NCBI GenBank assembly: GCA_046727855.1 | Contig: JBKPDL010000026.1 | Location: forward strand, 2,343-66,342 | DNA length: 64,000 nucleotides | DNA from: Acidobacteriota bacterium | GTDB taxonomy: Bacteria; Acidobacteriota; Vicinamibacteria; Vicinamibacterales; UBA2999 | Reading direction: 5' to 3' | In this document: positions 1,016 to 63,558 of the stretch, one piece after another | Layout of the letters: every line of letters starts with the position of its first letter | Position numbering within the stretch: the first letter of the stretch is position 1 | Translations under genes and position numbers: made by a program | The notes under the pieces: model-generated | What the model saw: the letters and a program-made list of their open reading frames with translations, nothing else | Told to the model about the DNA's origin: nothing | Databases searched by the model: none

Positions 1016-1194
1016 TAGACCGTTATCCGGCTCCTTGCGTGAATTATGTACTCGTTTCGCCGCATGCGAGGAAGCAGTCGGTTGACGGTCTCGGGCGCGC
1101 GGAGCGCACCGAAACCGGCATCCAGACCTAGTGCCCGAGGACGCTGCCCTTCACGGTGTCGCAGTAAACCGCGTATCAGTGTCGGCGCCATCGG

Positions 1195-10583: not shown

Positions 10584-10707
10584 ATGCCTAATCTCTGCAG
10601 CCTTACGCCCTACGAACGTAGTGGTCAGTCTGCGCCTGACGAAACACGATGGCGCGAGCGGCGACGCCGCCACGCCAGCGGTTCCTGCGCTGTCGCGGGC
10701 GGGACGT

Positions 10708-10858
10708 GGGAAGTTCCGCGGTTCTCACCTTCCGGAGTTCAGGTTGGGCGTTTCGGGGTTCCAGGCGTTGGGAATTCAGGAGTTCCAGAGTCGAACGCTC
10801 TGAACATCGAACCCAGCAACGTCGGAACTTCGAAACCTGCGAACCTAGGAACGCTGAG
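10708..10858. repeat. intergenic word array / imperfect hairpin (GTTCC-type words, then GAAC-type words)
   Basis: GGAGTTCAGG, GGGGTTCCAGG and GGAATTCAGGAGTTCCAGAG are followed by a central hairpin CAGAG-TCGAACG-CTCTG (10786-10802). After that come GAACATCGAACC, GGAACTTCGAAACC and GAACCTAGGAAC. Confidence 0.7.
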
Positions 10859-12005
10859 AGACGAGGCGCCAGAACTGCGGTTCGTTGAGCAGCGTAATCC
10901 GGTGCCCCTTCTCACGGAGCCGTTTCACCTCCATGAGCTTGCGGCCGGCGTCGCGGCCGGCGGCCTGCAGCGCGTTCGGCCGCCCGCGAACGACCACTGT
11001 GGTCAGCGTCGAGGGCGCGCCGTGCACGATCGCGCCGGCGCGACGCGCTGCCTTGACGGCCTCTGCACGGTGTCGCATCAGAATGCCGGTAAACGCCAAA
11101 TGCACGCCGCGAAGGGTCCTCAGCACGCCGGCTTTGAGCGGCGTCGGACGCGTACGCAGGGCTGCGATCAACTCGTTGGCCGTCTCGTACCGTTTACGGC
11201 GCTCGCCAAGGCAACGGTAGATGATTTCCTTCAACTGATCGCTGCACGAGAGAAGGCGCACGTCCCGCGTGCGAAGGCGCGCGGTTGCATTGCCCTTCAC
11301 GAGCATGCCGATTAGCTGGCCCACTTGATACACGTCGTCCCGCGCCTGCCATTTGGGAACGACCCCCGCCAGAATATCGCTCGGCGCCGTCAACGCGTTC
11401 ATCGTTCGTACCGTCACCCCACGACCGTCGCTTTGATGACGCGTGATGCCAAAATCACCGAGCTTCAACTGATAGTCGGCGCACACGAACACATTCATCG
11501 GTGTCAGATCGCGGTGCAACATTTGTCCGCGATGAAGCTTACCCAGCACCTCCAGGACCGCGGCGATCTCACGTCGCGCGCTTGCCTCCGACCACGGTTT
11601 GGCGGCGCGCTCCAGGAACGAGCTGAGATCGCCGTGCGGCGCGTACTCGAGCGCCAGGCAATAGAGCGCTCGCCCATCCGGTTGCATCAGCGGAAAGGCC
11701 TCAAACATCTGAATGGCGCGCGGATGTCCGTCCAAGAGTTGACCGAAGTAGGCCTCACGCATCCAGCCGTCGATCCGATCGCTGACCTTGATGCCGACCA
11801 CGGCGGGAATCTTGTTTGACGTGCCGAGCCGTCGCGCCAGGTAGACTTGACCGAAGCCTCCCTCGCCGAGCAGACGATCGACGCGATAATCCAGCTGCGA
11901 CTCGGGACTCGTGATCGTGTGGCCCGCCTCGAAGAAATCTCCGCGCCGGCGTGCGGCGCGCACCACTGTGGCCGTTCTTGTTACTGCGCGCGACGCACGG
12001 GTCAT
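10845..12005 (-). CDS. Ser/Thr protein kinase fused to a C-terminal BRCT-like domain
   Basis: ATG at 12005 (MTRASRAV). Kinase motifs are GEGGFGQVY, VGIKV, HRDLTPMNVF and LGDFG. The C-terminal roughly 90 aa (GVHLAFTGILMRHRAEAVKAARRAGAIVHGAPSTLTTVVVRG...ITLLNEPQFWRLV) resemble the LigA-type BRCT. Confidence 0.75.
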   Translation of the reverse strand: MTRASRAVTRTATVVRAARRRGDFFEAGHTITSPESQLDYRVDRLLGEGGFGQVYLARRLGTSNKIPAVVGIKVSDRIDGWMREAYFGQLLDGHPRAIQMFEAFPLMQPDGRALYCLALEYAPHGDLSSFLERAAKPWSEASARREIAAVLEVLGKLHRGQMLHRDLTPMNVFVCADYQLKLGDFGITRHQSDGRGVTVRTMNALTAPSDILAGVVPKWQARDDVYQVGQLIGMLVKGNATARLRTRDVRLLSCSDQLKEIIYRCLGERRKRYETANELIAALRTRPTPLKAGVLRTLRGVHLAFTGILMRHRAEAVKAARRAGAIVHGAPSTLTTVVVRGRPNALQAAGRDAGRKLMEVKRLREKGHRITLLNEPQFWRLVSQRS

Positions 12006-16408: not shown

Positions 16409-16609
16409 CAGGCTTCAGATTTTAGATCTCAGATTGATCGGCGAAACGCTTCTCGCAATTTCGCGGATGCGGCAGCGAATGATCCTTGCGCCTGATTTCG
16501 GCCGGCGCGAGGATGAGCAGACCGACTGGACAGAGCGAGTTCATCAGCGGATTGTAGCGCCGGACATCGGCAAGCTGCCCAACGGGCGGACTTTGCGCGT
16601 TCGGGGGAT

Positions 16610-16930: not shown

Positions 16931-17082
16931 AGTAACCCTCCCAAAAAAGAAGATACGGGGAACGGGAGGGAGGGGTTCACTCTCCGGTTGCCAGTTGCCG
17001 GGTCAAAGTTACCGAGTCAGCTAACTCGAAACTGAGAACGCAGCCGTAAGCTGGGAAACTGCTAACTGGAAACTATTCAGAT

Positions 17083-17367
17083 CTAGCGAGTATCGAAAAC
17101 CGCCTTGAAATCCGGCAGGTCCCACTCGACCAAGCCATTGCGGACTTCGGCCATGGCGATGCGCTCGGCTTTGGTTGGCCGGCCGGCCGTCTCGGCGTCC
17201 TGCGCGTCGCCGAGCCGTGGCCTCGCACCTCGGCGCAGCTGCTTGGCGCGGAGCGCCGACACGTCCACGTATAAGAAACGGCTTTCAATGGGCGGCGCCG
17301 GCTCTCGCGGGATCCGGCTTTCCTCCGCCGCAGGGGCCTCTACCTGCTGGACTTCCTCATCAGACAT
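17083..17367 (-). CDS. rpoZ: RNA polymerase omega subunit-like protein
   Basis: SRFLYVDVSALRAKQLRRGARPRL ... KAERIAMAEVRNGLV follows the RpoZ/Rpb6 pattern (NRF-LV-VAARRARQ.. / IALREIEEGLI). It has an acidic N-terminal extension. Confidence 0.65.
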   Translation of the reverse strand: MSDEEVQQVEAPAAEESRIPREPAPPIESRFLYVDVSALRAKQLRRGARPRLGDAQDAETAGRPTKAERIAMAEVRNGLVEWDLPDFKAVFDTR

Positions 17368-17756: not shown

Positions 17757-17797
17757 CGGAAAAAGAAAAGGACCAGAGCCCAATTGAGCCCTGGTCC
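17757..17797 (-). terminator. intrinsic terminator of the dnaK-hsp20 operon
   Basis: The minus strand reads GGACCAG-GGCTCAATTGGGCT-CTGGTCC followed by TTTTCTTTTTCC. Confidence 0.75.
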
Positions 17798-17883
17798 TAT
17801 TTGCACGGTCAGCGATTAGCCCTTCAGGCTCTCACCCGCTTCGACCTGACATCTGACACCTGATCCTGAGACCTGACACCTGT

Positions 17884-18330
17884 TCAGGCCACTTCGACGT
17901 TGATCGTGCGCGGCTTGGCTTCCTCGCGGAACGGCAGCTTCACAGTGAGCACGCCGTTCTTGTACTCCGCACCGACCTTCGTCGGGTCGACCGTGACGGG
18001 CAGCGAGAACGTGCGCACGAAGCTGCCATAGGCACGCTCCACGCGGTGGAAGTTCTCCTGCTTGATGTCCTCAGAGAGCTTCCGCTCGCCGCGAATCGTC
18101 AGCGAGTTGTTCTCGACCGTCAGCTCGATGTCTTCGCGCTTCATGTCGGGGAGCTCCACTTTCATCACGAGCTCGCCGTCAGCTTCGTAAATGTCAACGG
18201 GTGGAACCCAGGTGCCACGATTCATCAAATGATCTTCCTGTCGGTTGCTCCACGCATCGTTGAACATCCGGTTCATGCGGTCCTGAAGCACTGCCAGATC
18301 ACGAAATGGATCGAAACGAACAATCGCCAT
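17884..18330 (-). CDS. Hsp20/alpha-crystallin small heat-shock protein
   Basis: 148 aa with alpha-crystallin domain WVPPVDIYEADGELVMKVELPDM...AEYKNGVLTVKLP. Confidence 0.9.
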   Translation of the reverse strand: MAIVRFDPFRDLAVLQDRMNRMFNDAWSNRQEDHLMNRGTWVPPVDIYEADGELVMKVELPDMKREDIELTVENNSLTIRGERKLSEDIKQENFHRVERAYGSFVRTFSLPVTVDPTKVGAEYKNGVLTVKLPFREEAKPRTINVEVA

Positions 18331-20478: not shown

Positions 20479-21381
20479 TTAGAAAAAGTCGGGCGACCCC
20501 TCGAACTGATGGGCTTGCACCGCGGCAGCTAGGTCCCGCGGCGACAGTGGCCCGGCGCTCGTGAGGAATAGGGTGGCCAGATCGGCTGGAATCGACTCGA
20601 AATAACGGTTCACCCTCGCGATCTGCGCCGGACCTTCAGGCCACACTTCATCGACGGCGCCGATCGGCAACGACATGCGTGCAGCCAATGACGCAGGCAC
20701 GAACTTGTCGCGCGCGGCAACAACGTAGACCGGAGTGCCACTGATGGAGGCGGCGGCGGCCAGGCCAAAGGTGCCGACCTTGTTGACCCACGCCTCGCCA
20801 AAGACCGCGTCGGCTCCGACGACGACGGCAGAGGCTTGGGATAGAAACGACGTGAGTGCCGCGTCGACGACGAGCGTGACCTGTGCACCGGCGCGATCCA
20901 TGACATCGGCCAGACGGCGACCTTCGTAGCGTGGCCGTCCCTCCCCGCAGACCACGCGCAGCCGGCGCTTGGCGGCGATCGCGGCGAGCGCGGAGTACAC
21001 GCTGCCGCTGTACGAGAGCGTGATCAGCAGCGGATCGGGATCGTCGAGGAGCAAGTCACGCAGTGCCGCCGATGCAGCCCGCATGAGCGCGCGCGGCGAT
21101 CGCTCGAGTTCGGCGCGCACCAGCGCAAAGGTGCCGGGACGATCGTGCTCGGCGACGGCTGCCGCCGACGCGCGCCAGAGCGGCGCCATGATCGGCTGGC
21201 CACCGCACACAATCCGCGCGATCTCGATGGTCGCGCCGCGTCCGGCGGCAATCGCGTCGGCCAGCAACGGCAATGCACGCGCGAGAAGTTCGGAAGCCCC
21301 GCTTTCGGCATCGCTCGCTATCGCACGCGCGACCGGCAAGAGGTTCCTGAGTTCCGGGGTTCCGGAGTTTCGCAGTTCCAA
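20479..21381 (-). CDS. eIF-2B alpha/beta/delta-like family protein (sugar-phosphate isomerase-like)
   Basis: ITLSYSGSVYSAL...RVVCGEGRPRYEGRRLA...VVVGADAVFGEAWVNKVGT is typical of the IF-2B family. The start is uncertain. The first 14 codons lie in the word-repeat array, and an alternative TTG is at 21339. Confidence 0.65.
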   Translation of the reverse strand: MELRNSGTPELRNLLPVARAIASDAESGASELLARALPLLADAIAAGRGATIEIARIVCGGQPIMAPLWRASAAAVAEHDRPGTFALVRAELERSPRALMRAASAALRDLLLDDPDPLLITLSYSGSVYSALAAIAAKRRLRVVCGEGRPRYEGRRLADVMDRAGAQVTLVVDAALTSFLSQASAVVVGADAVFGEAWVNKVGTFGLAAAASISGTPVYVVAARDKFVPASLAARMSLPIGAVDEVWPEGPAQIARVNRYFESIPADLATLFLTSAGPLSPRDLAAAVQAHQFEGSPDFF

Positions 21382-21480
21382 AGCTCGCCTCTGCCAGATT
21401 CAAGGTACTTCGGAACCTCGAAACGGCGGAACAGCGAACCTCGCCGTCGGATCCCTTGCAACCTTGGCAACCTCGCAAAA
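21338..21480. repeat. intergenic word array: 5 x 8-bp GTTCC units, then 4 x 8-bp GGAAC units
   Basis: GTTCC/GTTTC start at 21343, 21351, 21359, 21367 and 21375. GGAAC/GAAAC/GAACC start at about 21412, 21420, 21428 and 21436. CAACCTTGGCAACCTCGCAA follows. Confidence 0.8.
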
Positions 21481-21583
21481 GGACCGCTTTCTCCGTTCTT
21501 CGTTCCTATTTCGTGCCTGCCCGATGCAATCAGCATGCGCAATTCCGTCAGCGCATGTAACGGTCGGCGCGATAATCGAAATC

Positions 21584-22921
21584 ATGTGGACCCGACGCGC
21601 CTTCCTCGCCGCGGCCGCGTCAGCAGTGACGATCGGCCGTGTCGGAATACCAGCGGCGCAATCGGTCCGCCGCCCGATGATCGACGCGGCGCGATTGCGC
21701 GCCCGCCTCGAGCAGCTGAGCACATTCGGCCGTCCCGTTGGCGGCACGTTTGCGTCCGGCGTCAGCCGCGTCGCCTATTCGGACGCTGACGTCGCAGGCC
21801 GCGCTTGGCTGATGTCCGAGATGAAAGCCGCCGGCCTCACACCCCGGATCGATCCTGCCGGCAACGTGTTCGCCCGATACGGCGGCGCCGACGATCGCCC
21901 TGCGATTCTTTTCGGCTCGCACATCGATTCGGTGCCGTCTGGCGGCAATTTCGACGGCGATCTCGGAACGCTCGCGGCGCTTGAAACGATTCAGGCCTGC
22001 CAGGCAGCCGGGGTGACGACGCGATACCCACTCGAGATGGTGTTGTGGGCGCACGAAGAAAGCACGGCATTCGGCCACGGCACCGCCGCCAGCCGCATCG
22101 TCGCCGGCGATCTCAAGGCCGGCACGCTGACGCAGGAGTGGAACGGTCTGACACGTGCCGACGCGATTCGGCGCATCGGCGGAGATCCGGCGCGCATCGA
22201 AGAGGCGGTCCGCAAGCCGCACGCCTGGCATGCCTATGTGGAATTGCACATCGAGCAAGGTGGAACGCTCGAAAAGGTGTCCACGGCCATCGGCGTGGTC
22301 GAAGGCATTGTGGCGATCCACCGCTATGACGTGGTCATCACCGGCTTTGCCAACCACGCCGGCACGACGCCGATGAACGAGCGGCGCGACGCGCTCGTGG
22401 CGGCCGCTGATATCGTGCGGATGGTGCGCGAGGTCGTCACGTCGCGACCTGGCCGGCACGTCGGCACAGTGGGCCGGCTGGAGGTCGCGCCAAATTCACC
22501 GAACGTGATTCCCGGAAAAGTGACGCTGAGCGTCGAGCTGCGCGATCTTTCGGAGGCCACACTCGACGCGCTGGCCGCGGAGATTCGCGCGCGGGCCGAT
22601 CGAATCGCGCGCGAAACGCAGACGGAAATCGCCATGGCGCTCGCCTCGCGCAACCCACCGGCGCTTGCCCATGGCGGCGTGCAGCAGTGCATCGAACGGT
22701 CCGCCGAGCGCGGGGCGCTCACCACTCGGCGCTTGCCGAGCGGCGCCGGGCACGATGCTCAGATGATTGCCGCGCTCTGTCCCATGGGCATGATCTTCGT
22801 GCCGAGCATTGGCGGCATCAGCCACTCGCCGCTCGAGCGCACCACGTGGGAAGACTGCGCAAACGGCGCAGCTGTGCTGCTCGGCACGATCCTCGAACTC
22901 GATGCGAGGAGTACAATCTAG
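21584..22921 (+). CDS. M20-family Zn-dependent amidohydrolase (allantoate/N-carbamoyl-amino-acid amidohydrolase-like), Tat signal
   Basis: The internal ATG at 21584 gives MWTRRAFLAAAASAV (twin-arginine motif). FGSHIDSVPSGGNFDGDLG, WAHEES and GAGHDAQ are M20/AmaB-like motifs. The upstream part of the 650-aa track ORF is antisense to the previous gene. Confidence 0.85.
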   Translation: MWTRRAFLAAAASAVTIGRVGIPAAQSVRRPMIDAARLRARLEQLSTFGRPVGGTFASGVSRVAYSDADVAGRAWLMSEMKAAGLTPRIDPAGNVFARYGGADDRPAILFGSHIDSVPSGGNFDGDLGTLAALETIQACQAAGVTTRYPLEMVLWAHEESTAFGHGTAASRIVAGDLKAGTLTQEWNGLTRADAIRRIGGDPARIEEAVRKPHAWHAYVELHIEQGGTLEKVSTAIGVVEGIVAIHRYDVVITGFANHAGTTPMNERRDALVAAADIVRMVREVVTSRPGRHVGTVGRLEVAPNSPNVIPGKVTLSVELRDLSEATLDALAAEIRARADRIARETQTEIAMALASRNPPALAHGGVQQCIERSAERGALTTRRLPSGAGHDAQMIAALCPMGMIFVPSIGGISHSPLERTTWEDCANGAAVLLGTILELDARSTI

Positions 22922-25610: not shown

Positions 25611-25760
25611 GTCGAGCGGTTCGCAGGGTCGCAGGGTCGGAGGTTAGCAGGTGGGTCGCAGGTGGGCACGTCAGCAGGAACTTGCCTGCAAGCGTGCGCG
25701 CGATCTTGCGAACCTGTGAACCACCTGCCAACCTGCAGACCTGCTAACCTGCAAACCTAT
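25611..25760. repeat. 150-bp inverted duplication of GCAGG words separating xseA from xseB
   Basis: GCAGG/GGAGG start at 25623, 25631, 25639, 25647, 25658 and 25674. The central hairpin is GCAGG-AACTTG-CCTGC. CCTGC/CCTGT start at 25685, 25713, 25724, 25732, 25740 and 25748. The arms mirror each other in both spacing and sequence. Confidence 0.85.
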
Positions 25761-33491: not shown

Positions 33492-33520
33492 GCGCGCTGG
33501 CGTTCGCGGTCAAGCCCCCA

Positions 33521-33770
33521 AGAGAGAACAGGGAGATCGGGGAGATCGGGGAGAACTAGCCAAGGGCCCTGCCCTTGATATCCGGCTAACTCCGCGGCCC
33601 TTGGCTAGTTCTTGTTGTTGGCTTGGCGCGCTCCGCGCGCCGTCGTCCGTTATGCGGGTCCACAACGCGTACAAAATTCACGTCTGTGGCCGCATAACGG
33701 TCTAAAACAAATCCCTGCTGATCTCCCTGATCTCCCTGATCTCCCTGTTGCTTTTCTCTCCCTGATCTCC
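33521..33770. repeat. about 250-bp nested-palindrome element upstream of hup (35-bp terminal inverted repeats enclosing three internal hairpins)
   Basis: The outer arms are AGAGAGAACAGGGAGATCGGGGAGATCGGGGAGAAC (33521-33556) and GATCTCCCTGATCTCCCTGATCTCCCTGTTGCTTTTCTCTC (33720-33760). The inner perfect inverted repeats are CTAGCCAAGGGCC/GGCCCTTGGCTAG (33556-33568 / 33596-33608), GGCGCGC-TCC-GCGCGCC (33625-33641) and CCGTTATGCGG/CCGCATAACGG (33647-33657 / 33690-33700). Confidence 0.85.
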
Positions 33771-33793
33771 TATAACCCGCTCGAGGTCATCGG

Positions 33794-34066
33794 ATGAATA
33801 AGCAGGAACTGATCGCAAAGGTCGCCAAAGACATCGGCGACACCAAGACTAACGCCGCGCGTGCGATCGATTCGGTCATCGACGGCATCACCAAGGCCTT
33901 GAAGAAGGGCGACTCGGTCACCTTTGTCGGCTTCGGCACCTTCAAGACATCGAATCGCAAGGCGCGCACTGCCCGCAATCCCCAGACGGGCGCAGAGATC
34001 AAGATCCCCAAGCGCAAGGCCGTTCGCTTTGTGGCTGGCAAAGCCCTGAAGACCGCGGTCAATTAG
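33794..34066 (+). CDS. hup: HU-family DNA-binding protein
   Basis: MNKQELIAKVAKDIGDTKTNAARAIDSVIDGI...RNPQTGAEIKIPKRKAVRFVAGKALK. GAGG lies 7 nt upstream of the ATG. Confidence 0.95.
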   Translation: MNKQELIAKVAKDIGDTKTNAARAIDSVIDGITKALKKGDSVTFVGFGTFKTSNRKARTARNPQTGAEIKIPKRKAVRFVAGKALKTAVN

Positions 34067-34098
34067 AGCCGGGCGACGGGTGCGCGAGGGGCGAAAGA

Positions 34099-34136
34099 GC
34101 GGTGGGTGCGGCGCCGACACCCACGCACCGCGTTTT
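34099..34136 (+). terminator. candidate intrinsic terminator after hup
   Basis: GCGGTGGGTG-loop-CACCCACGCACCGC followed by GTTTTA. The stem has one bulge. Confidence 0.45.
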
Positions 34137-34248
34137 ACGCACGAGCGCACCCGTGCACCGCGCCGATCTACCTGACGTACCCTCCGCACCCGAGCACCTG
34201 GTCCTTTGCTATACTTTTCGTTTGCCTGTTCGATAGAGGCATACCTCT

Positions 34249-34325: not shown

Positions 34326-34391
34326 TTCGAACTACGAGGTCTTGTTCCTGGTCCTGCCTTCAGTTCTTAGTTCTCAGGGCTTAGTTCTCGC

Positions 34392-36317: not shown

Positions 36318-36436
36318 GGGTTTCCAAAAAGGAAGTTTTCCAGAACTCATTTGCCAGTTCAAAGTTCGGGTGATGGTGAACTGGCTGGAAACTGGGACCT
36401 GGAAACTGGAAACTAACTGAGTTCGGGAGAACCAAT

Positions 36437-37047: not shown

Positions 37048-37251
37048 ATGGCGAGCATGAAACTCAAGACCCATCGTGGAGCCGCCAAGCGGTTCAAGAA
37101 GACGGCGAGCGGCAAGTTCAAGCGCAGCTCGGCGTTCAAGCGGCACATTCTCACGAGCAAGACGACGAAGCGGAAGCGCGGACTGCGGAAGTCGGTGACG
37201 GTGTCCGAGTCGGAGCAGCACAAGCTCGAGCGCATGCTGCCGTACAAGTGA
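37048..37251 (+). CDS. rpmI: 50S ribosomal protein L35
   Basis: [33 protein letters not shown]. Confidence 0.95.
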
Positions 37252-37377
37252 ACGAAGAACCAAGAACGAAGAACGACCAACCGACAGCCAGTGCTCAGGG
37301 CTTTTCCGCTGTCGAACACACGCGGTCGATGCAACACCAAGTCCCGCCAGGGCCCCTGATCACCGAAAGAGAGCAGC

Positions 37378-41860: not shown

Positions 41861-41865
41861 CCATG

Positions 41866-42056
41866 GGTTCCTGCTTTGCTCGTGATGGCTTTTCAGGAGG
41901 CTTGTCTGAGCCAACGTTAACCCCAAGAGAGTTGCGACAGCCGCGTGGTGTGCATGCCTCCGTGGAGAGGAAGCCTGAAGCGCGGCTCTTACAGCGGCTC
42001 CACCTGCTGATGCAGGTTCAGCAGACCTCCCCACACGGCAAAGCGGGAACATTTTC
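41866..42056 (+). ncRNA. ssrS: 6S RNA (SsrS)
   Basis: It sits directly downstream of zapA, as in E. coli. The closing stem is GUUCCUGCUUUGC..CGUG / CACG..GCAAAGCGGGAAC. The next stem is GGAGG..UCUGA / UCAGCAGACCUCC. There is a large central bubble. The terminal stem is AGCCGCG/CGCGGCU, with hairpin CCUC-CGUGGA-GAGG. The 3' bubble hairpin is CCUGC-UGA-UGCAGG. Confidence 0.78.
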
Positions 42057-42099
42057 AAGACCAGCTGCTCAGGTCCGTAGGGTTGCGACAGATGCGGAA

Positions 42100-42138
42100 G
42101 ATGCCGTCGGGTGCGCAGGCGCACCTGTGCACGGCATC
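42100..42138 (+). terminator. strong GC hairpin downstream of 6S RNA (no U-tract)
   Basis: GATGCCGT-CG-GGTGCGC-AG-GCGCACC-TGTGC-ACGGCATC. Confidence 0.35.
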
Positions 42139-42293
42139 TCGGCACCCGCCCGCACCCGCGCACCGTACCGAAACCTGTCGCACCCAACTCACCGACGCAT
42201 CCGACTCCGCGCGGGAGATTTTGCGCCGAGCTACGTTGAGACCCTCGCCGCAGCGGCGAGACGGAGGCCGCAAAGGCGGGCCTTCCGCACCTG

Positions 42294-43871: not shown

Positions 43872-44116
43872 CCGCCGCGGCGCCGCGCGCCGCGACGTAG
43901 GTTCCCAACGAGGTTCCCGGCGGAGGTTCCTCACGCACGTTCACGGAGGTTCCCGACAGGGTTCCTTACGTGTGTTCCTCACGGACGTTCTCGTAGTTCC
44001 TAGGTAGTGTTCCGAACGACGCGAACTCACGTCAGGAACTCTCACTTAGAGAACCTCGTGAACTCACGTGAGGAACCTACGTAAGGAACCCCCGTGAGGA
44101 ACCCACGTGATGTGGA
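43872..44116. repeat. 245-bp GGTTCC / GGAACC word array filling a convergent spacer
   Basis: The left arm has about 10 GGTTCC/GTTCC/GTTCT words (AGGTTCCC, GAGGTTCCC, GGAGGTTCCTCACG, ...). The right arm has about 8 GGAACC/GGAACT/GAACT words (GAGGAACCTACGTAAGGAACCCCCGTGAGGAACCCACGTGA). CACG/CGTG motifs are interleaved. Confidence 0.85.
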
Positions 44117-57856: not shown

Positions 57857-58036
57857 GTCAAGGTGGGCAAACCCCTAAACTGCTGACCTCCAAGGCATTT
57901 GCGCGTTTCGATTGATGAGCGGGATGGCCGGTTTCAGATTGGGATTGCAGATTGCTAGTCGGCCACTCCAATCGTCCTTCGCCCATCGAAGCCCTGCAAT
58001 CTCGAGCATCGCCGCGCGTATGGTTGAATTGGAGCG

Positions 58037-63095: not shown

Positions 63096-63212
63096 CACAT
63101 CTCCATATCGGCACATCGATCCATGACATCGCCACATCATCAAATCTCCACATCGCAACATGGCCGCCATCCTGCTAAACTGGATGGACGGACAACGGTC
63201 CGCTTACCTCAA

Positions 63213-63558
63213 GGGGGCGACTTGGCTTCGACGGGGGTGCGGGATCGTGGAACGCGTGCCGAGGGCCAGCTCCTCGTTAATCCGTTGGAAACAACCATAA
63301 CTGCGGATACGCAGCTCGCTCTCGCTGCTTAAGCAGTGAGCGGTCACCTGGTGAGTGCCTGCGGCACCAGGCTGACCGTCATTTAGCAGGCTCGTTGTCG
63401 TGGGCCTCCCGGACCACGGCAATCAAATCTTCCGGGAGGGGCGACCGGGGATTTTCGCTCCGTTCCAAACCGGTTGCGACTTTAGAACGGAGACACGCAC
63501 GTAGCGGTCTGCGACGACGCATTTTCGGACGCGGGTTCAACTCCCGCCGCCTCCACCA
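63213..63558 (+). ncRNA. ssrA: tmRNA (SsrA)
   Basis: The 5' end GGGGGCGACUUGGCUUCGACGGGG pairs with the 3' end ..CGCCUCC-A-CCA, including a G3:U pair. The T arm is GCGGGUUCAACUCCCGC. The tag reading frame is GCG GAT ACG CAG CTC GCT CTC GCT GCT TAA (63303-63332), giving ADTQLALAA*. Confidence 0.92.

What the first reader, a model, noticed from the sequence alone, without database searches (positions are those of the whole stretch)
21338..21480. Spacer-specific word arrays: tandem 5-8-nt words on one arm and their reverse complements on the other, in nearly every intergenic region
In this spacer, GTTCC-type words start at 21343, 21351, 21359, 21367 and 21375, an exact 8-bp period. GGAAC-type words start at about 21412, 21420, 21428 and 21436, again with an 8-bp period.

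The same architecture recurs with other words:
- 10708-10858: GTTCC then GAAC words.
- 25611-25760: GCAGG then CCTGC words.
- 33521-33770: GGGAGATC then GATCTCCC words.
- 43872-44116: GGTTCC then GGAACC words.

Shorter one-armed arrays also occur:
- 16410-16440 and 57935-57960: CAGATT.
- 17040-17100 and 36375-36420: GGAAACTG / GCTAACT.
- 17845-17888: CTGACAC.
- 34326-34391: TAGTTCT.
- 37252-37290: GAAGAAC.
- 42140-42230 and 34080-34200: GCACC.
- 63096-63165: CACATC.

The arrays occur in co-directional, divergent and convergent spacers, so they are not simply terminators. A classical U-tract terminator does exist at 17757-17797. The words differ between loci, which argues against one mobile family. 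It suggests either local generation (slippage plus inverted duplication) or selection for long hairpins or periodic protein-binding arrays. I know of no described element class that matches this.
Basis: seen in the sequence. Interest (0 to 1): 0.72.

Follow-up and report, generated by a model that had tools for sequence, protein, structure and literature searches.

The report
Short-word repeat arrays between genes
The DNA between two genes carries a 5-letter word repeated every 8 bases and then its reverse complement, one weak example of how this soil bacterial class (Vicinamibacteria) fills gene spacers with slippage-prone 7-8-base repeats that often pair into very long hairpins; this kind of repeat is already known, and here it appears in a new lineage with unusually varied words.

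Summary
GTT[CT]C starts at 21343, 21351, 21359, 21367 and 21375, and the complement starts at 21412-21435. Chance expects 0 such matches. An independent soil-metagenome assembly carries the same array, so it is not an assembly artefact.

"Nearly every spacer" is overstated: about one third of spacers of at least 60 bp carry a significant array.

The window comes from a Vicinamibacteria (Acidobacteriota) genome. In 32 related loci plus the window, arrays of at least 3 copies run at 2.6 per kb of noncoding DNA against 0.13 per kb of coding DNA. Of 154 noncoding arrays, 119 have a 7- or 8-nt unit, and 76 of 99 heptamers are distinct.

Two-armed arrays fold into giant hairpins (median 38 bp, no U-tract) that fill whole spacers. 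They are common between convergent genes (28%) and rare between divergent ones (3%).

The arrays are lineage-specific. Close strains differ by whole-unit insertions or deletions.

The flagged array is a weak member in a divergent spacer.

This matches heptamer-rich long simple-sequence repeats (Mrázek 2007) and the inverted heptamer pairs of Xanthomonas (Rehm 2015). I rate it a new variant of a known kind, most likely made by slippage. A role as an RNA hairpin is not excluded.

The parts
21343..21379 (+). Left arm of the flagged array: GTTCC-type words, period 8, 4.6 copies. It lies just upstream of the likely start (about 21339) of the IF-2B-like gene on the - strand.
   Evidence: the gene start is inferred from the N-termini of homologues
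21412..21440 (+). Right arm of the flagged array: GGAAC/CGAAA/CGAAC words, period 7-9. It is 74% complementary to the left arm.
   Evidence: fold z = -2.3 (+) and -3.5 (-) for 21340-21445
21454..21478 (+). Third small array in the same spacer: CCTTGCAA, period 8, 3 copies.
10708..10858 (.). Weak two-armed array (GTTC then GAAC words) directly downstream of the Ser/Thr kinase gene (10845-11966, - strand).
   Evidence: fold z = -2.7 and -1.1
25611..25760 (+). Two-armed array (GCAGG at period 8, then CCTGC at period 8) that fills the whole xseA-xseB spacer. Strong hairpin.
   Evidence: z = -7.1 and -6.8; an allele lacking one 8-nt unit at 25639 in run X1
33531..33554 (+). Left arm: GGGAGATCG, 2.7 perfect copies. 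It forms the outer stem around an inserted repeat element.
33713..33769 (+). Right arm: CTGATCTCC, 3.3 perfect copies plus one more unit, just upstream of the HU gene (33794-34066, + strand).
   Evidence: z = -12 and -10
43895..44110 (.). Two-armed array (GGTTCC, period about 13, then GGAACC) forming a 67-bp hairpin. It fills the convergent spacer between the 3D-domain gene and the ABC-transporter gene.
   Evidence: z about -8; the closest relatives have a 20-23 nt spacer here; the array is present in an X1 contig
16414..16435 (.). One-armed array: TTCAGAT, period 7, 3.1 copies. It abuts the start codon of the AMP-binding enzyme gene (- strand).
17844..17882 (-). One-armed array: ACCTGAC, period 7, 5.7 copies. 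It lies between the hsp20 stop codon (17884) and a classical terminator (17798-17769 plus T-tract), so it is in the 3' untranslated region.
34078..34198 (+). GGTGC then GCACC words after the HU gene. The region includes a hairpin followed by TTTT.
   Evidence: 68% identical over 116 nt to 42081-42193
34362..34388 (+). One-armed array: AGTTCTT, period 7, 3.9 copies. It ends 3 nt before the thrS start codon.
36379..36419 (+). One-armed array: CTGGAAA / AACTG, period 7, 4.3 copies, between thrS and infC.
37250..37276 (+). One-armed array: GAACGAA, period 7, 3.9 copies, starting at the rpmI stop codon.
   Evidence: a strain allele with 20 extra nt of the same units
42120..42184 (+). GCACC word array downstream of 6S RNA (41865-42053).
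57910..57954 (.). Weak GATTG / CAGATT word cluster.
63096..63165 (+). One-armed array: CACATC, period 8, about 5 copies. It starts 1 nt after the dienelactone-hydrolase stop codon and lies upstream of tmRNA.

Best explanation
The flagged feature is one instance of a lineage-wide property of Vicinamibacteria genomes. Their noncoding DNA is rich in simple-sequence repeats with 7- or 8-nt units, and the repeated word is essentially arbitrary at each locus.

**How the arrays arise and change (inferred from polymorphism and turnover).** Replication slippage adds or removes whole units. Coding DNA does not tolerate this, so the arrays pile up in spacers and can come to make up the whole spacer.

**How two-armed arrays arise (inferred, not shown).** Both halves of an inverted repeat come to consist of such arrays. 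This could happen by fold-back (template-switch) copying of a one-armed array. It could also happen by expansion of both halves of a small pre-existing stem-loop.

**The result (shown by folding).** The product is a long imperfect hairpin built from many short helices in register.

**Where they persist.** Such hairpins persist mainly downstream of genes and between cistrons. They are rare in divergent promoter regions.

**The copy at 21343-21440.** This is a weak, lineage-specific example in a divergent spacer: 5-bp word helices separated by mismatched 3-nt linkers. It most likely has no dedicated function of its own.
For: **Taxon.** The ThrS protein is 71-84% identical to Vicinamibacteria/Acidobacteriota metagenome-assembled genomes.

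**Density and unit size.**
- In 32 related loci plus the window there are 154 TRF arrays (at least 3 copies) in 59.8 kb of noncoding DNA (2.58/kb) and 68 in 532 kb of coding DNA (0.128/kb).
- Of the noncoding arrays, 89 have period 7 and 30 have period 8.
- Noncoding DNA of other phyla has 0.74/kb (GC at least 0.6) and 0.42/kb (lower GC).
- The same heptamer and octamer dominance appears in 120 independent soil contigs.

**Arbitrary words.** There are 76 distinct canonical heptamers among 99 arrays, with no dominant word.

**Slippage-type polymorphism between near-identical strains.** One 8-nt unit is missing at 25639 in one of two X1 alleles. Twenty nt of GAACGAA-type units are inserted at 37269.

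**Rapid birth and death.**
- The flagged spacer is 27-173 nt and lacks these arrays in five syntenic relatives.
- The 245-nt array spacer at 43872-44116 is 20-23 nt in the two closest relatives.
- The xseA-xseB spacer is 0-139 nt elsewhere.

**Hairpins.**
- Two-armed arrays have a median fold z of -7.6, and 95% are below -3.
- Stems have a median of 38 bp and reach about 80 bp. They sit 5 and 9 nt from the flanking genes.

**Complementarity looks word-level rather than position-specific.** Permuting the unit order in one arm rarely lowers stability; only about 2 of roughly 19 testable cases are clearly better than the permutations. There is also no sense-versus-antisense energy asymmetry (5 versus 9, p = 0.27).

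**Precedent.** Heptamers dominate long simple-sequence repeats in repeat-rich genomes, and slippage was proposed as the cause (Mrázek 2007, as described in PMC4679880). Inverted heptamer pairs are reported in Xanthomonas (PMC4692102).
Against: - The rpmI-rplT spacer holds a well-folded hairpin in 13 of 30 Vicinamibacteria genomes (17 at z < -2). Each has different words. The same spacer has a median of 15 nt and no such hairpin in 20 genomes of other phyla. Structure kept while sequence turns over is what selection on a hairpin would give.
- The two arms are closely matched in length, because hairpins reach both spacer edges. Independent neutral expansion of each arm does not predict this.
- The bias convergent > co-directional >> divergent would also be expected for functional 3'-end elements.
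- Slippage rates, the template-switch step, and the reason for 7-8 nt units were not measured.
- Gene boundaries come from my own simple codon-score caller, so the spacer statistics are approximate.
Confidence: 0.6

Rival explanations
1. The two-armed arrays are selected RNA hairpins. They would act at gene 3' ends and between cistrons as transcript-end protectors against exonucleases, as RNase III processing sites, or as U-tract-less terminators. Slippage would simply be the way their stems are built and renewed.
For: - Location bias: 28% of convergent, 9% of co-directional '++' and 3% of divergent spacers carry them. Well-folded spacers follow the same order, 58%, 36% ('++') and 5%.
- A hairpin recurs in the orthologous rpmI-rplT spacer with different words in each genome. 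A Shine-Dalgarno-like AGGAG often follows it directly.
- The arms are matched in length.
- The one-armed array at 17844-17882 lies between a stop codon and a real terminator, so it is transcribed.
- Rehm 2015 found most of the Xanthomonas repeats transcribed (PMC4692102).
Against: - Most are absent from the same spacer in close relatives.
- No G·U-type strand asymmetry favours the sense strand.
- None has a U-tract.
- Stems are far longer than any known need, and copy number differs between strains.
- Metatranscriptome contigs gave no coverage of these spacers, so there is no RNA evidence either way.
- The flagged copy is in a divergent spacer and folds weakly.
Confidence: 0.2
2. The arrays are periodic binding sites for a DNA- or RNA-binding protein (a nucleoid protein, a regulator, or ribosomal protein S1, cold-shock or CsrA-like factors). 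Alternatively they are copy-number 'tuning knobs' for neighbouring promoters or 5' untranslated regions.
For: - Several one-armed arrays abut start codons that lack an obvious Shine-Dalgarno sequence: thrS at 34362-34388 and the AMP-binding enzyme gene at 16414-16435. This resembles the TAACTGA repeats of Beggiatoaceae (PMC4679880).
- The flagged array lies in a divergent promoter region.
- Some words recur within a genome: GTTCC at three loci and GCACC at two loci in the window. Within-genome word sharing is 9.4% against 3.7% between genomes.
Against: - There are 76 different heptamers among 99 arrays, and periods of 7, 8, 9 and 13 nt. One protein cannot read them all.
- The periods are not in phase with the DNA helix.
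- The arrays are not conserved at orthologous promoters.
- Single arrays lie nearer the upstream stop codon (14 of 38 within 10 nt) than the downstream start codon (5 of 38).
Confidence: 0.08
3. The two-armed arrays are small non-autonomous mobile hairpins (REPIN-like or MITE-like) that are copied between spacers. Each genome would hold several low-copy families.
For: - L005 carries the same AGTGCC.../...GCACTT hairpin arms at two loci 6.4 kb apart, with different loops and flanks.
- Two L002 hairpins are 86% identical.
- Words are shared within genomes more than between genomes.
- In run X1, depth over the right-arm words at 44058-44105 is about 10-20 times the flanking depth.
Against: - In the 64-kb window no two-armed array has a second alignable copy. 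The only similarity is 68% over 116 nt between the two GCACC regions.
- The L002 pair shares its flanking sequence, so it looks like a segmental duplication.
- Words are extremely diverse.
- No terminal inverted repeats or target duplications were seen, and no associated transposase was looked for.
Confidence: 0.07
4. The arrays are assembly or polishing artefacts of a long-read metagenome assembly.
For: The window appears to come from a metagenome-assembled genome, because only soil and sediment metagenome runs hold it.
Against: - Independent Logan contigs from another run reproduce the arrays base for base.
- The same kind of array occurs in dozens of assemblies from many different projects.
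Confidence: 0.01

Closest known systems
Long simple-sequence repeats with 5-11-nt units (LSSR 5-11), dominated by heptanucleotides (Mrázek, Guo & Shah 2007, as summarised in PMC4679880; also Huang & Mrázek 2014, PMC4060949)
   Same: Both are tandem head-to-tail copies of 7-8-nt units. Both are far above chance, almost entirely intergenic and variable in length. Both are found in large-genome environmental bacteria. Slippage is the proposed cause, and abundance is thought to reflect a tendency to expand rather than a specific role.
   Different: These were not reported for Vicinamibacteria or Acidobacteriota; I found no paper on it. Here a large share of arrays come as complementary pairs that form hairpins of about 40-80 bp and fill whole spacers.
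GGGAATC / GGGNATC heptamer repeats of Xanthomonas and Nostoc, including 70-75 inverted pairs per Xanthomonas genome (Rehm et al. 2015, PMC4692102)
   Same: Both are heptamer arrays that are 89-93% intergenic. Both lie close to the stop codon of the upstream gene. Both are common between co-directional and convergent genes and rare between divergent ones. In both, many arrays occur as two nearby arrays on opposite strands that can form stem-loops. Array length is not conserved between related species.
   Different: In Xanthomonas one G-rich word dominates the genome and can form G-quadruplexes, with a preference for four units. Here nearly every locus has its own word (76 distinct among 99), unit GC is only 52%, and G-tracts are the exception. 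GGGAGATCG at 33531 is the one look-alike, and it has only three G-tracts.
TAACTGA heptamer direct repeats of marine Beggiatoaceae, some Cyanobacteria and Bacteroidetes (MacGregor 2015, PMC4679880)
   Same: Both are short heptamer arrays of 2-6 copies that lie within a few nt upstream of start codons lacking a Shine-Dalgarno sequence. The arrays before thrS and before the AMP-binding enzyme gene here are of this kind. Arrays occur within ribosomal-protein operons in both. AACTG-type words (36379-36419 in the window; L002 12904) even resemble TAACTGA.
   Different: That system has a single word per genome and almost no inverted pairs (one indirect repeat among 170 sets). Here words are diverse, pairs are common, and arrays lie more often after stop codons than before start codons.
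Cyanobacterial short tandemly repeated repetitive (STRR) heptamers (from my own knowledge of Mazel et al. 1990; Calothrix heptanucleotides are mentioned in PMC4692102)
   Same: Both are tandem heptanucleotide arrays in noncoding DNA.
   Different: STRR comprise a few fixed words per genome. I am not aware of any systematic paired-arm hairpin architecture for them.
REP / REPIN elements (Bertels & Rainey 2011, PMC3116915)
   Same: Both are extragenic inverted pairs that form long hairpins, mostly downstream of genes.
   Different: REPINs are many near-identical copies of one sequence family moved by a dedicated transposase. Here the sequence is different at almost every locus and the arms are internally tandem.
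Intrinsic (Rho-independent) terminators
   Same: Both are hairpins downstream of genes.
   Different: Terminators have a short GC-rich stem plus a U-tract. Here stems have a median of 38 bp and none of 21 has a T-tract. True terminators exist separately in the window, for example 17798-17769 on the - strand.

Membership tests
Long simple-sequence repeats, 5-11-nt units (LSSR 5-11 / heptamer SSR) | Head-to-tail tandem copies of a 5-11-nt unit | tested here: met
   TRF reports periods of 7, 8, 9 and 13 at all listed sites. In the clade, 119 of 154 noncoding arrays have period 7 or 8.
Long simple-sequence repeats, 5-11-nt units (LSSR 5-11 / heptamer SSR) | Longer or more frequent than expected from composition | tested here: met
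   The flagged pattern matches 4 times against 0 expected. Noncoding DNA has 1.9 arrays per kb against about 0.12 per kb in shuffled sequence. Nine of 32 spacers have p < 0.02.
Long simple-sequence repeats, 5-11-nt units (LSSR 5-11 / heptamer SSR) | Predominantly intergenic | tested here: met
   2.58 per kb of noncoding DNA against 0.128 per kb of coding DNA.
Long simple-sequence repeats, 5-11-nt units (LSSR 5-11 / heptamer SSR) | Copy number varies by whole units between strains (slip-strand behaviour) | tested here: met
   An 8-nt unit is missing at 25639. Twenty nt of the same unit type are inserted at 37269. Only two events were seen, both in metagenome contigs. The flagged array itself shows no insertion or deletion in X1.
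Xanthomonas-type inverted heptamer pairs (Rehm 2015) | Two arrays of the same unit, close together on opposite strands | tested here: met
   Five such sites in the window. Among clade spacers, 28 of 305 carry one.
Xanthomonas-type inverted heptamer pairs (Rehm 2015) | One genome-wide G-rich unit (GGGNATC) able to form a G-quadruplex, with four units preferred | tested here: not met
   There are 76 distinct heptamers among 99 arrays, and unit GC is 52%. Only 33531-33554 (GGGAGATCG) resembles the unit, and it has three G-tracts.
Xanthomonas-type inverted heptamer pairs (Rehm 2015) | Near the upstream stop codon and under-represented between divergent genes | tested here: met
   Of single arrays, 14 of 38 lie within 10 nt of the stop codon and 5 of 38 within 10 nt of the start codon. 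Two-armed arrays are in 3% of divergent and 28% of convergent spacers. The flagged copy is an exception.
Intrinsic terminator | Short GC-rich stem-loop followed by a U-tract | tested here: not met
   None of 21 two-armed arrays has at least 5 T in the 10 nt after the stem, and the median stem is 38 bp. The scan found no terminator-like site in 21250-21650.
REP / REPIN / MITE (dispersed mobile hairpins) | Many near-identical copies of one sequence across the genome | tested here: not met
   The flagged array and the other two-armed arrays have no second copy in the 64 kb. Isolated two-copy cases exist in L005 and L002. Whole genomes were not available.
REP / REPIN / MITE (dispersed mobile hairpins) | Associated transposase (a REP-associated tyrosine transposase or other) or terminal inverted repeats with target-site duplication | not tested
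   I made no search for such genes or for target duplications.
CRISPR array | Repeats of 23-50 nt separated by unique spacers of similar length | tested here: not met
   Units are 7-13 nt and directly adjacent.

The most novel reading that the evidence does not exclude
Vicinamibacteria, and apparently some Gemmatimonadales, may build a large share of their gene-end and intercistronic RNA hairpins from self-expanding heptamer arrays, which could be called 'accordion hairpins'. In this reading both arms grow together by fold-back copying. The hairpins are kept by selection as processing or stability elements that set the expression ratio of neighbouring genes, for example rpmI:rplT and xseA:xseB. 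Because they change by whole units, they provide a fast-evolving, locus-specific control. This would be a mode of making regulatory RNA structure that has not been described.
Probability: 0.2. Interest if true: 0.7.

Novelty: new variant of a known kind. Interest (0 to 1): 0.45.

Why it matters
Vicinamibacteria are among the most abundant soil bacteria and are almost unstudied at the molecular level.

- **Scale of the effect.** About a third of their longer spacers consist of 7-8-nt repeat arrays. About a tenth hold giant hairpins, rising to more than a quarter between convergent genes. Much of their intergenic DNA is therefore young, self-generated and variable between strains.
- **Practical consequences.** This affects assembly and polishing of such genomes and the alignment of spacers. 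It also affects prediction of promoters, terminators and small RNAs, and it offers markers for strain typing.
- **Evolutionary use.** It is a natural case for asking why heptamers are the preferred slippage unit. It also lets one ask whether long hairpins can arise neutrally and then be taken over for RNA-level control. The rpmI-rplT spacer, which keeps a hairpin but never the same words, makes that question directly testable.

Tried and rejected
- **Sense-strand G·U test for RNA-level selection.** Sense versus antisense folding energies of two-armed arrays in co-directional spacers show no bias (5 versus 9, p = 0.27).
- **Unit-order permutation test.** This asked whether pairing between arms is position-specific. 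It was mostly non-significant (about 2 of roughly 19 testable cases) and has low power because units are so similar. I treat it as inconclusive.
- **Rho-utilisation-site idea.** I considered that C-rich, G-poor one-armed arrays might act as rut sites after genes. The sense-strand composition of single arrays is balanced (C 0.27, G 0.27), so I rejected this as a general explanation.
- **Metatranscriptomes.** RNA runs hold only conserved coding pieces from relatives. There is no usable coverage of the spacers.
- **Rfam.** No family matches any array region.
- **Promoter and terminator scan of the flagged spacer.** Nothing was found.
- **Link to the repeat element inside 33555-33705.** I asked whether arrays are generated by, or belong to, this high-copy element. 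Only 3 of 69 copies have complementary array flanks, so it is a separate element.
- **First tandem-repeat statistic.** Scoring +1 for a match and -2 for a mismatch was too strict for words with variable linkers. I replaced it with word-cluster and TRF counts.
- **Exact-protein look-up of ThrS.** Nothing was found.
- **Mrázek 2007.** The paper could not be opened. I cite it through PMC4679880.
Full report
**What is at the coordinates**

The spacer between an IF-2B-family gene (- strand) and an M20 peptidase gene (+ strand, start 21584) holds three small arrays. The IF-2B-family gene most likely starts near 21339, judging from the N-termini of homologues.

- GTT[CT]C words start at 21343, 21351, 21359, 21367 and 21375, an exact 8-nt period.
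- [GC]GAA[AC] words start at 21412, 21419, 21428 and 21435.
- A third array, CCTTGCAA at period 8, lies at 21454-21478.

The pattern GTTCCN3GTTCCN3GTTCC with at most one mismatch occurs four times in the window. All four are here, on both strands. It occurs in none of 100 shuffles.

The two arms are 74% complementary. The fold is only marginally better than shuffled sequence: z = -1.1 for 21330-21490, and z = -2.3 and -3.5 for 21340-21445 on the two strands. The scan found no promoter-like or terminator-like site.

An independent soil-metagenome assembly (run X1) contains a 715-nt contig spanning 21172-21800 with eight substitutions and no gaps. The array is therefore not an assembly artefact.

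**The other arrays in the window**

I built a gene map with a simple codon-score caller and checked it with Pfam on 20 genes.

- HU is on the + strand, at 33794-34066.
- 25611-25760 fills the whole xseA-xseB spacer.
- 43872-44116 fills the whole convergent spacer between a 3D-domain gene and an ABC-transporter gene.
- Several one-armed arrays begin at a stop codon (37250, 63096, 17882) or end at a start codon (34388, 16414).

Word arrays (at least 4 copies of one 5-mer within 60 nt) number 13 in 6.7 kb of noncoding DNA and 12 in 57.3 kb of coding DNA. Block-shuffled sequence gives 7.7 per 64 kb.

Only 9-11 of 32 spacers of at least 60 bp are individually significant. "Nearly every spacer" is therefore overstated.

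Three of the five two-armed sites are strong hairpins: z about -7 at 25611-25760, z about -8 at 43872-44116 and z about -12 at 33520-33775. The flagged site and 10700-10860 are weak.

**Whose genome, and how general**

ThrS places the window in the Vicinamibacteria (Acidobacteriota). The best matches are 84% and 82% identical, and about 30 further metagenome-assembled genomes are 71-77% identical. Only soil and sediment metagenomes hold the sequence.

Across 32 related 8-22-kb loci plus the window:

- TRF arrays of at least 3 copies run at 2.58 per kb of noncoding DNA and 0.128 per kb of coding DNA.
- 89 of the 154 noncoding arrays have a 7-nt unit and 30 have an 8-nt unit.
- Noncoding DNA of other phyla in the same search has 0.74 per kb (high GC) and 0.42 per kb (lower GC).

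A further 120 soil contigs show the same dominance of heptamers and octamers.

The words are extremely diverse. There are 76 distinct canonical heptamers among 99 arrays, and unit GC is 52% in genomes of 62-72% GC.

Words are not strictly private to a spacer, however. Arrays in different spacers of one genome share a 6-mer in 9.4% of pairs, against 3.7% for pairs from different genomes. One genome (L005) carries the same hairpin arms at two loci.

**Two-armed arrays are giant hairpins at gene ends**

In the clade, two-armed arrays occupy:

- 28% of convergent spacers,
- 9% of co-directional '++' spacers and none of 29 '--' spacers,
- 3% of divergent spacers.

They fold far better than shuffles, with median z = -7.6 and 95% below -3.

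- The median stem is 38 bp, and stems reach about 80 bp.
- Loops are about 6 nt.
- Stems run from about 5 nt after one gene to about 9 nt before the next.
- None of 21 has a T-tract.

Classical terminators exist separately, for example 17798-17769 on the - strand. That terminator lies downstream of a one-armed array, which places the array inside a 3' untranslated region.

There is no sense-versus-antisense energy bias. Permuting the order of units in one arm rarely weakens the fold. Complementarity therefore looks word-level rather than position-by-position, although this test has low power.

**Turnover**

- *Flagged spacer.* It is 27-173 nt and lacks these arrays in five syntenic relatives whose M20 protein is 76-81% identical.
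- *43872-44116.* This 245-nt hairpin spacer is 20-23 nt in the two closest relatives.
- *xseA-xseB.* This spacer is 0-139 nt elsewhere.
- *Close strains.* Near-identical strains in one soil sample differ by one 8-nt unit at 25639 and by 20 nt of GAACGAA-type units at 37269.
- *rpmI-rplT.* This spacer behaves differently. Its median length is 82 nt in Vicinamibacteria, and it holds a well-folded hairpin in 13 of 30 genomes. Each hairpin is built from different words, such as CAGCTGT, GGATGAC, AAATGCA, AGAAGTT and CTTCAGG. In other phyla the spacer has a median of 15 nt and a hairpin in 0 of 20 genomes.

**Interpretation**

The simplest account is that these are long simple-sequence repeats with 7-8-nt units. 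Slippage makes and remodels them in DNA that tolerates length change. Paired arms arise by inverted copying or by expansion of both halves of small stem-loops. I put this at about 0.6.

It explains the unit-size polymorphism, the arbitrary words, the rapid birth and death, and the near-absence from coding DNA.

It explains three things less well: the arms matched in length, the gene-end bias, and the persistence at rpmI-rplT. A selected RNA-hairpin role therefore remains a live rival, at about 0.2. Protein-binding arrays, mobile hairpins and artefact are less likely or excluded.

The flagged copy is weakly paired, lineage-specific and in a divergent spacer. It is most likely a by-product.

**Relation to what is known**

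- Heptamer-dominated long simple-sequence repeats in large environmental genomes were described by Mrázek et al. 2007, as summarised in PMC4679880.
- Rehm et al. 2015 (PMC4692102) described GGGAATC heptamer arrays in Xanthomonas. They are 89-93% intergenic, lie about 28 nt from the upstream gene and are rare between divergent genes. In 70-75 cases per genome they occur as inverted pairs able to form stem-loops.
- MacGregor 2015 (PMC4679880) described TAACTGA heptamers just upstream of start codons.

The class is therefore known.

Three things are new here. First, the lineage: I found no report for Vicinamibacteria or Acidobacteria. Second, there is a different word at almost every locus instead of one word per genome. 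Third, the paired arms are large enough to fill whole spacers with 40-80-bp hairpins.

I rate this a new variant of a known kind, of moderate interest.

Noticed in passing
window 33546-33705, between the GGGAGATCG and CTGATCTCC arms: A three-hairpin element of about 155 nt belongs to a very high-copy repeat family of soil metagenomes.
- Its sequence runs AACyAGCCAAGGGC..CCCTTGATATCC..; GGCGCGCTCCGCGCGCC; GGACCGyTATGCGG..CCGCATArCGGTCC.
- Contig word depth in run X1 is about 9500, against about 30 for neighbouring genes and about 700 for tRNA-Val.
- The third hairpin shows compensatory changes in 5 pairs across 45 copies.
- There is no Rfam match and almost no depth in metatranscriptomes.
- Only 3 of 69 copies (window, L015, L122) sit between complementary word arrays, each with different words.

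It looks like a REP-like or hairpin-ended mobile element.
   Followed up: partly
L201 1-49, compared with window 21506 and 33605-33639: A JGI contig encodes a 100% identical M20 peptidase but departs from the window 78 nt upstream of the start codon. There it carries 35 nt that are 89% identical to part of the three-hairpin element, in reverse orientation. This is a strain-level insertion polymorphism in the flagged spacer itself. The contig ends inside the repeat, so the rest is unseen.
   Followed up: partly
window 1016-1056: A 41-nt stretch is 80% identical, in reverse orientation, to the third hairpin of the same element (33664-33704). It is probably a partial second copy.
   Followed up: no
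window 37289-37369 (also L001 12945-13030 and L002 12955-13040): A conserved structured segment lies between the rpmI-proximal array and the rplT start codon. It is shared by the window and its two closest relatives. The closing stem is TCAGGGC...GCCCCTGA, with a CCAAGTCC motif. There is no Rfam match. It may be a ribosomal-protein L20 regulatory leader of this subclade.
   Followed up: partly
window 34078-34190 and 42081-42193: The two GGTGC/GCACC word regions, one after HU and one after 6S RNA, are 68% identical over 116 nt. GGTGC/GCACC two-armed arrays also lie just upstream of 6S RNA in L002 and L012, and upstream of thrS in L006. This word family therefore recurs near the same genes in several genomes, unlike most words.
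   Followed up: partly
window 44058-44105: The right-arm units (CGTGAGGAACCC type) have 10-20 times the flanking depth in soil run X1, with many different flanks. Similar GGAACC arrays must therefore be common elsewhere in the community. GGTTC/GAACC words also recur in the window (three loci) and in L002, L006, L008, L025 and L095.
   Followed up: no
L051 14328-14413, L052 7826-7887, L054 10023-10243, L056 21265-21516 (Gemmatimonadales genomes): The same two-armed heptamer architecture (for example GTCGTAG x6 then CTACGAC x4) occurs in Gemmatimonadales loci used as controls. The habit is therefore not confined to Vicinamibacteria.
   Followed up: no
window 41865-42053 and 63213-63558: 6S RNA (90 bits) and tmRNA (174 bits; tag ADTQLALAA) are both flanked by word arrays.
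   Followed up: no
L202, L205 and L206, about 1830-1990, upstream of dnaK: A conserved AT-rich motif (ATGAGTnTTTGTCAAGCATGTTnTATGAGTG) lies between dnaK and the M20 peptidase gene in relatives that lack the IF-2B-like gene. It may be a heat-shock operator.
   Followed up: no
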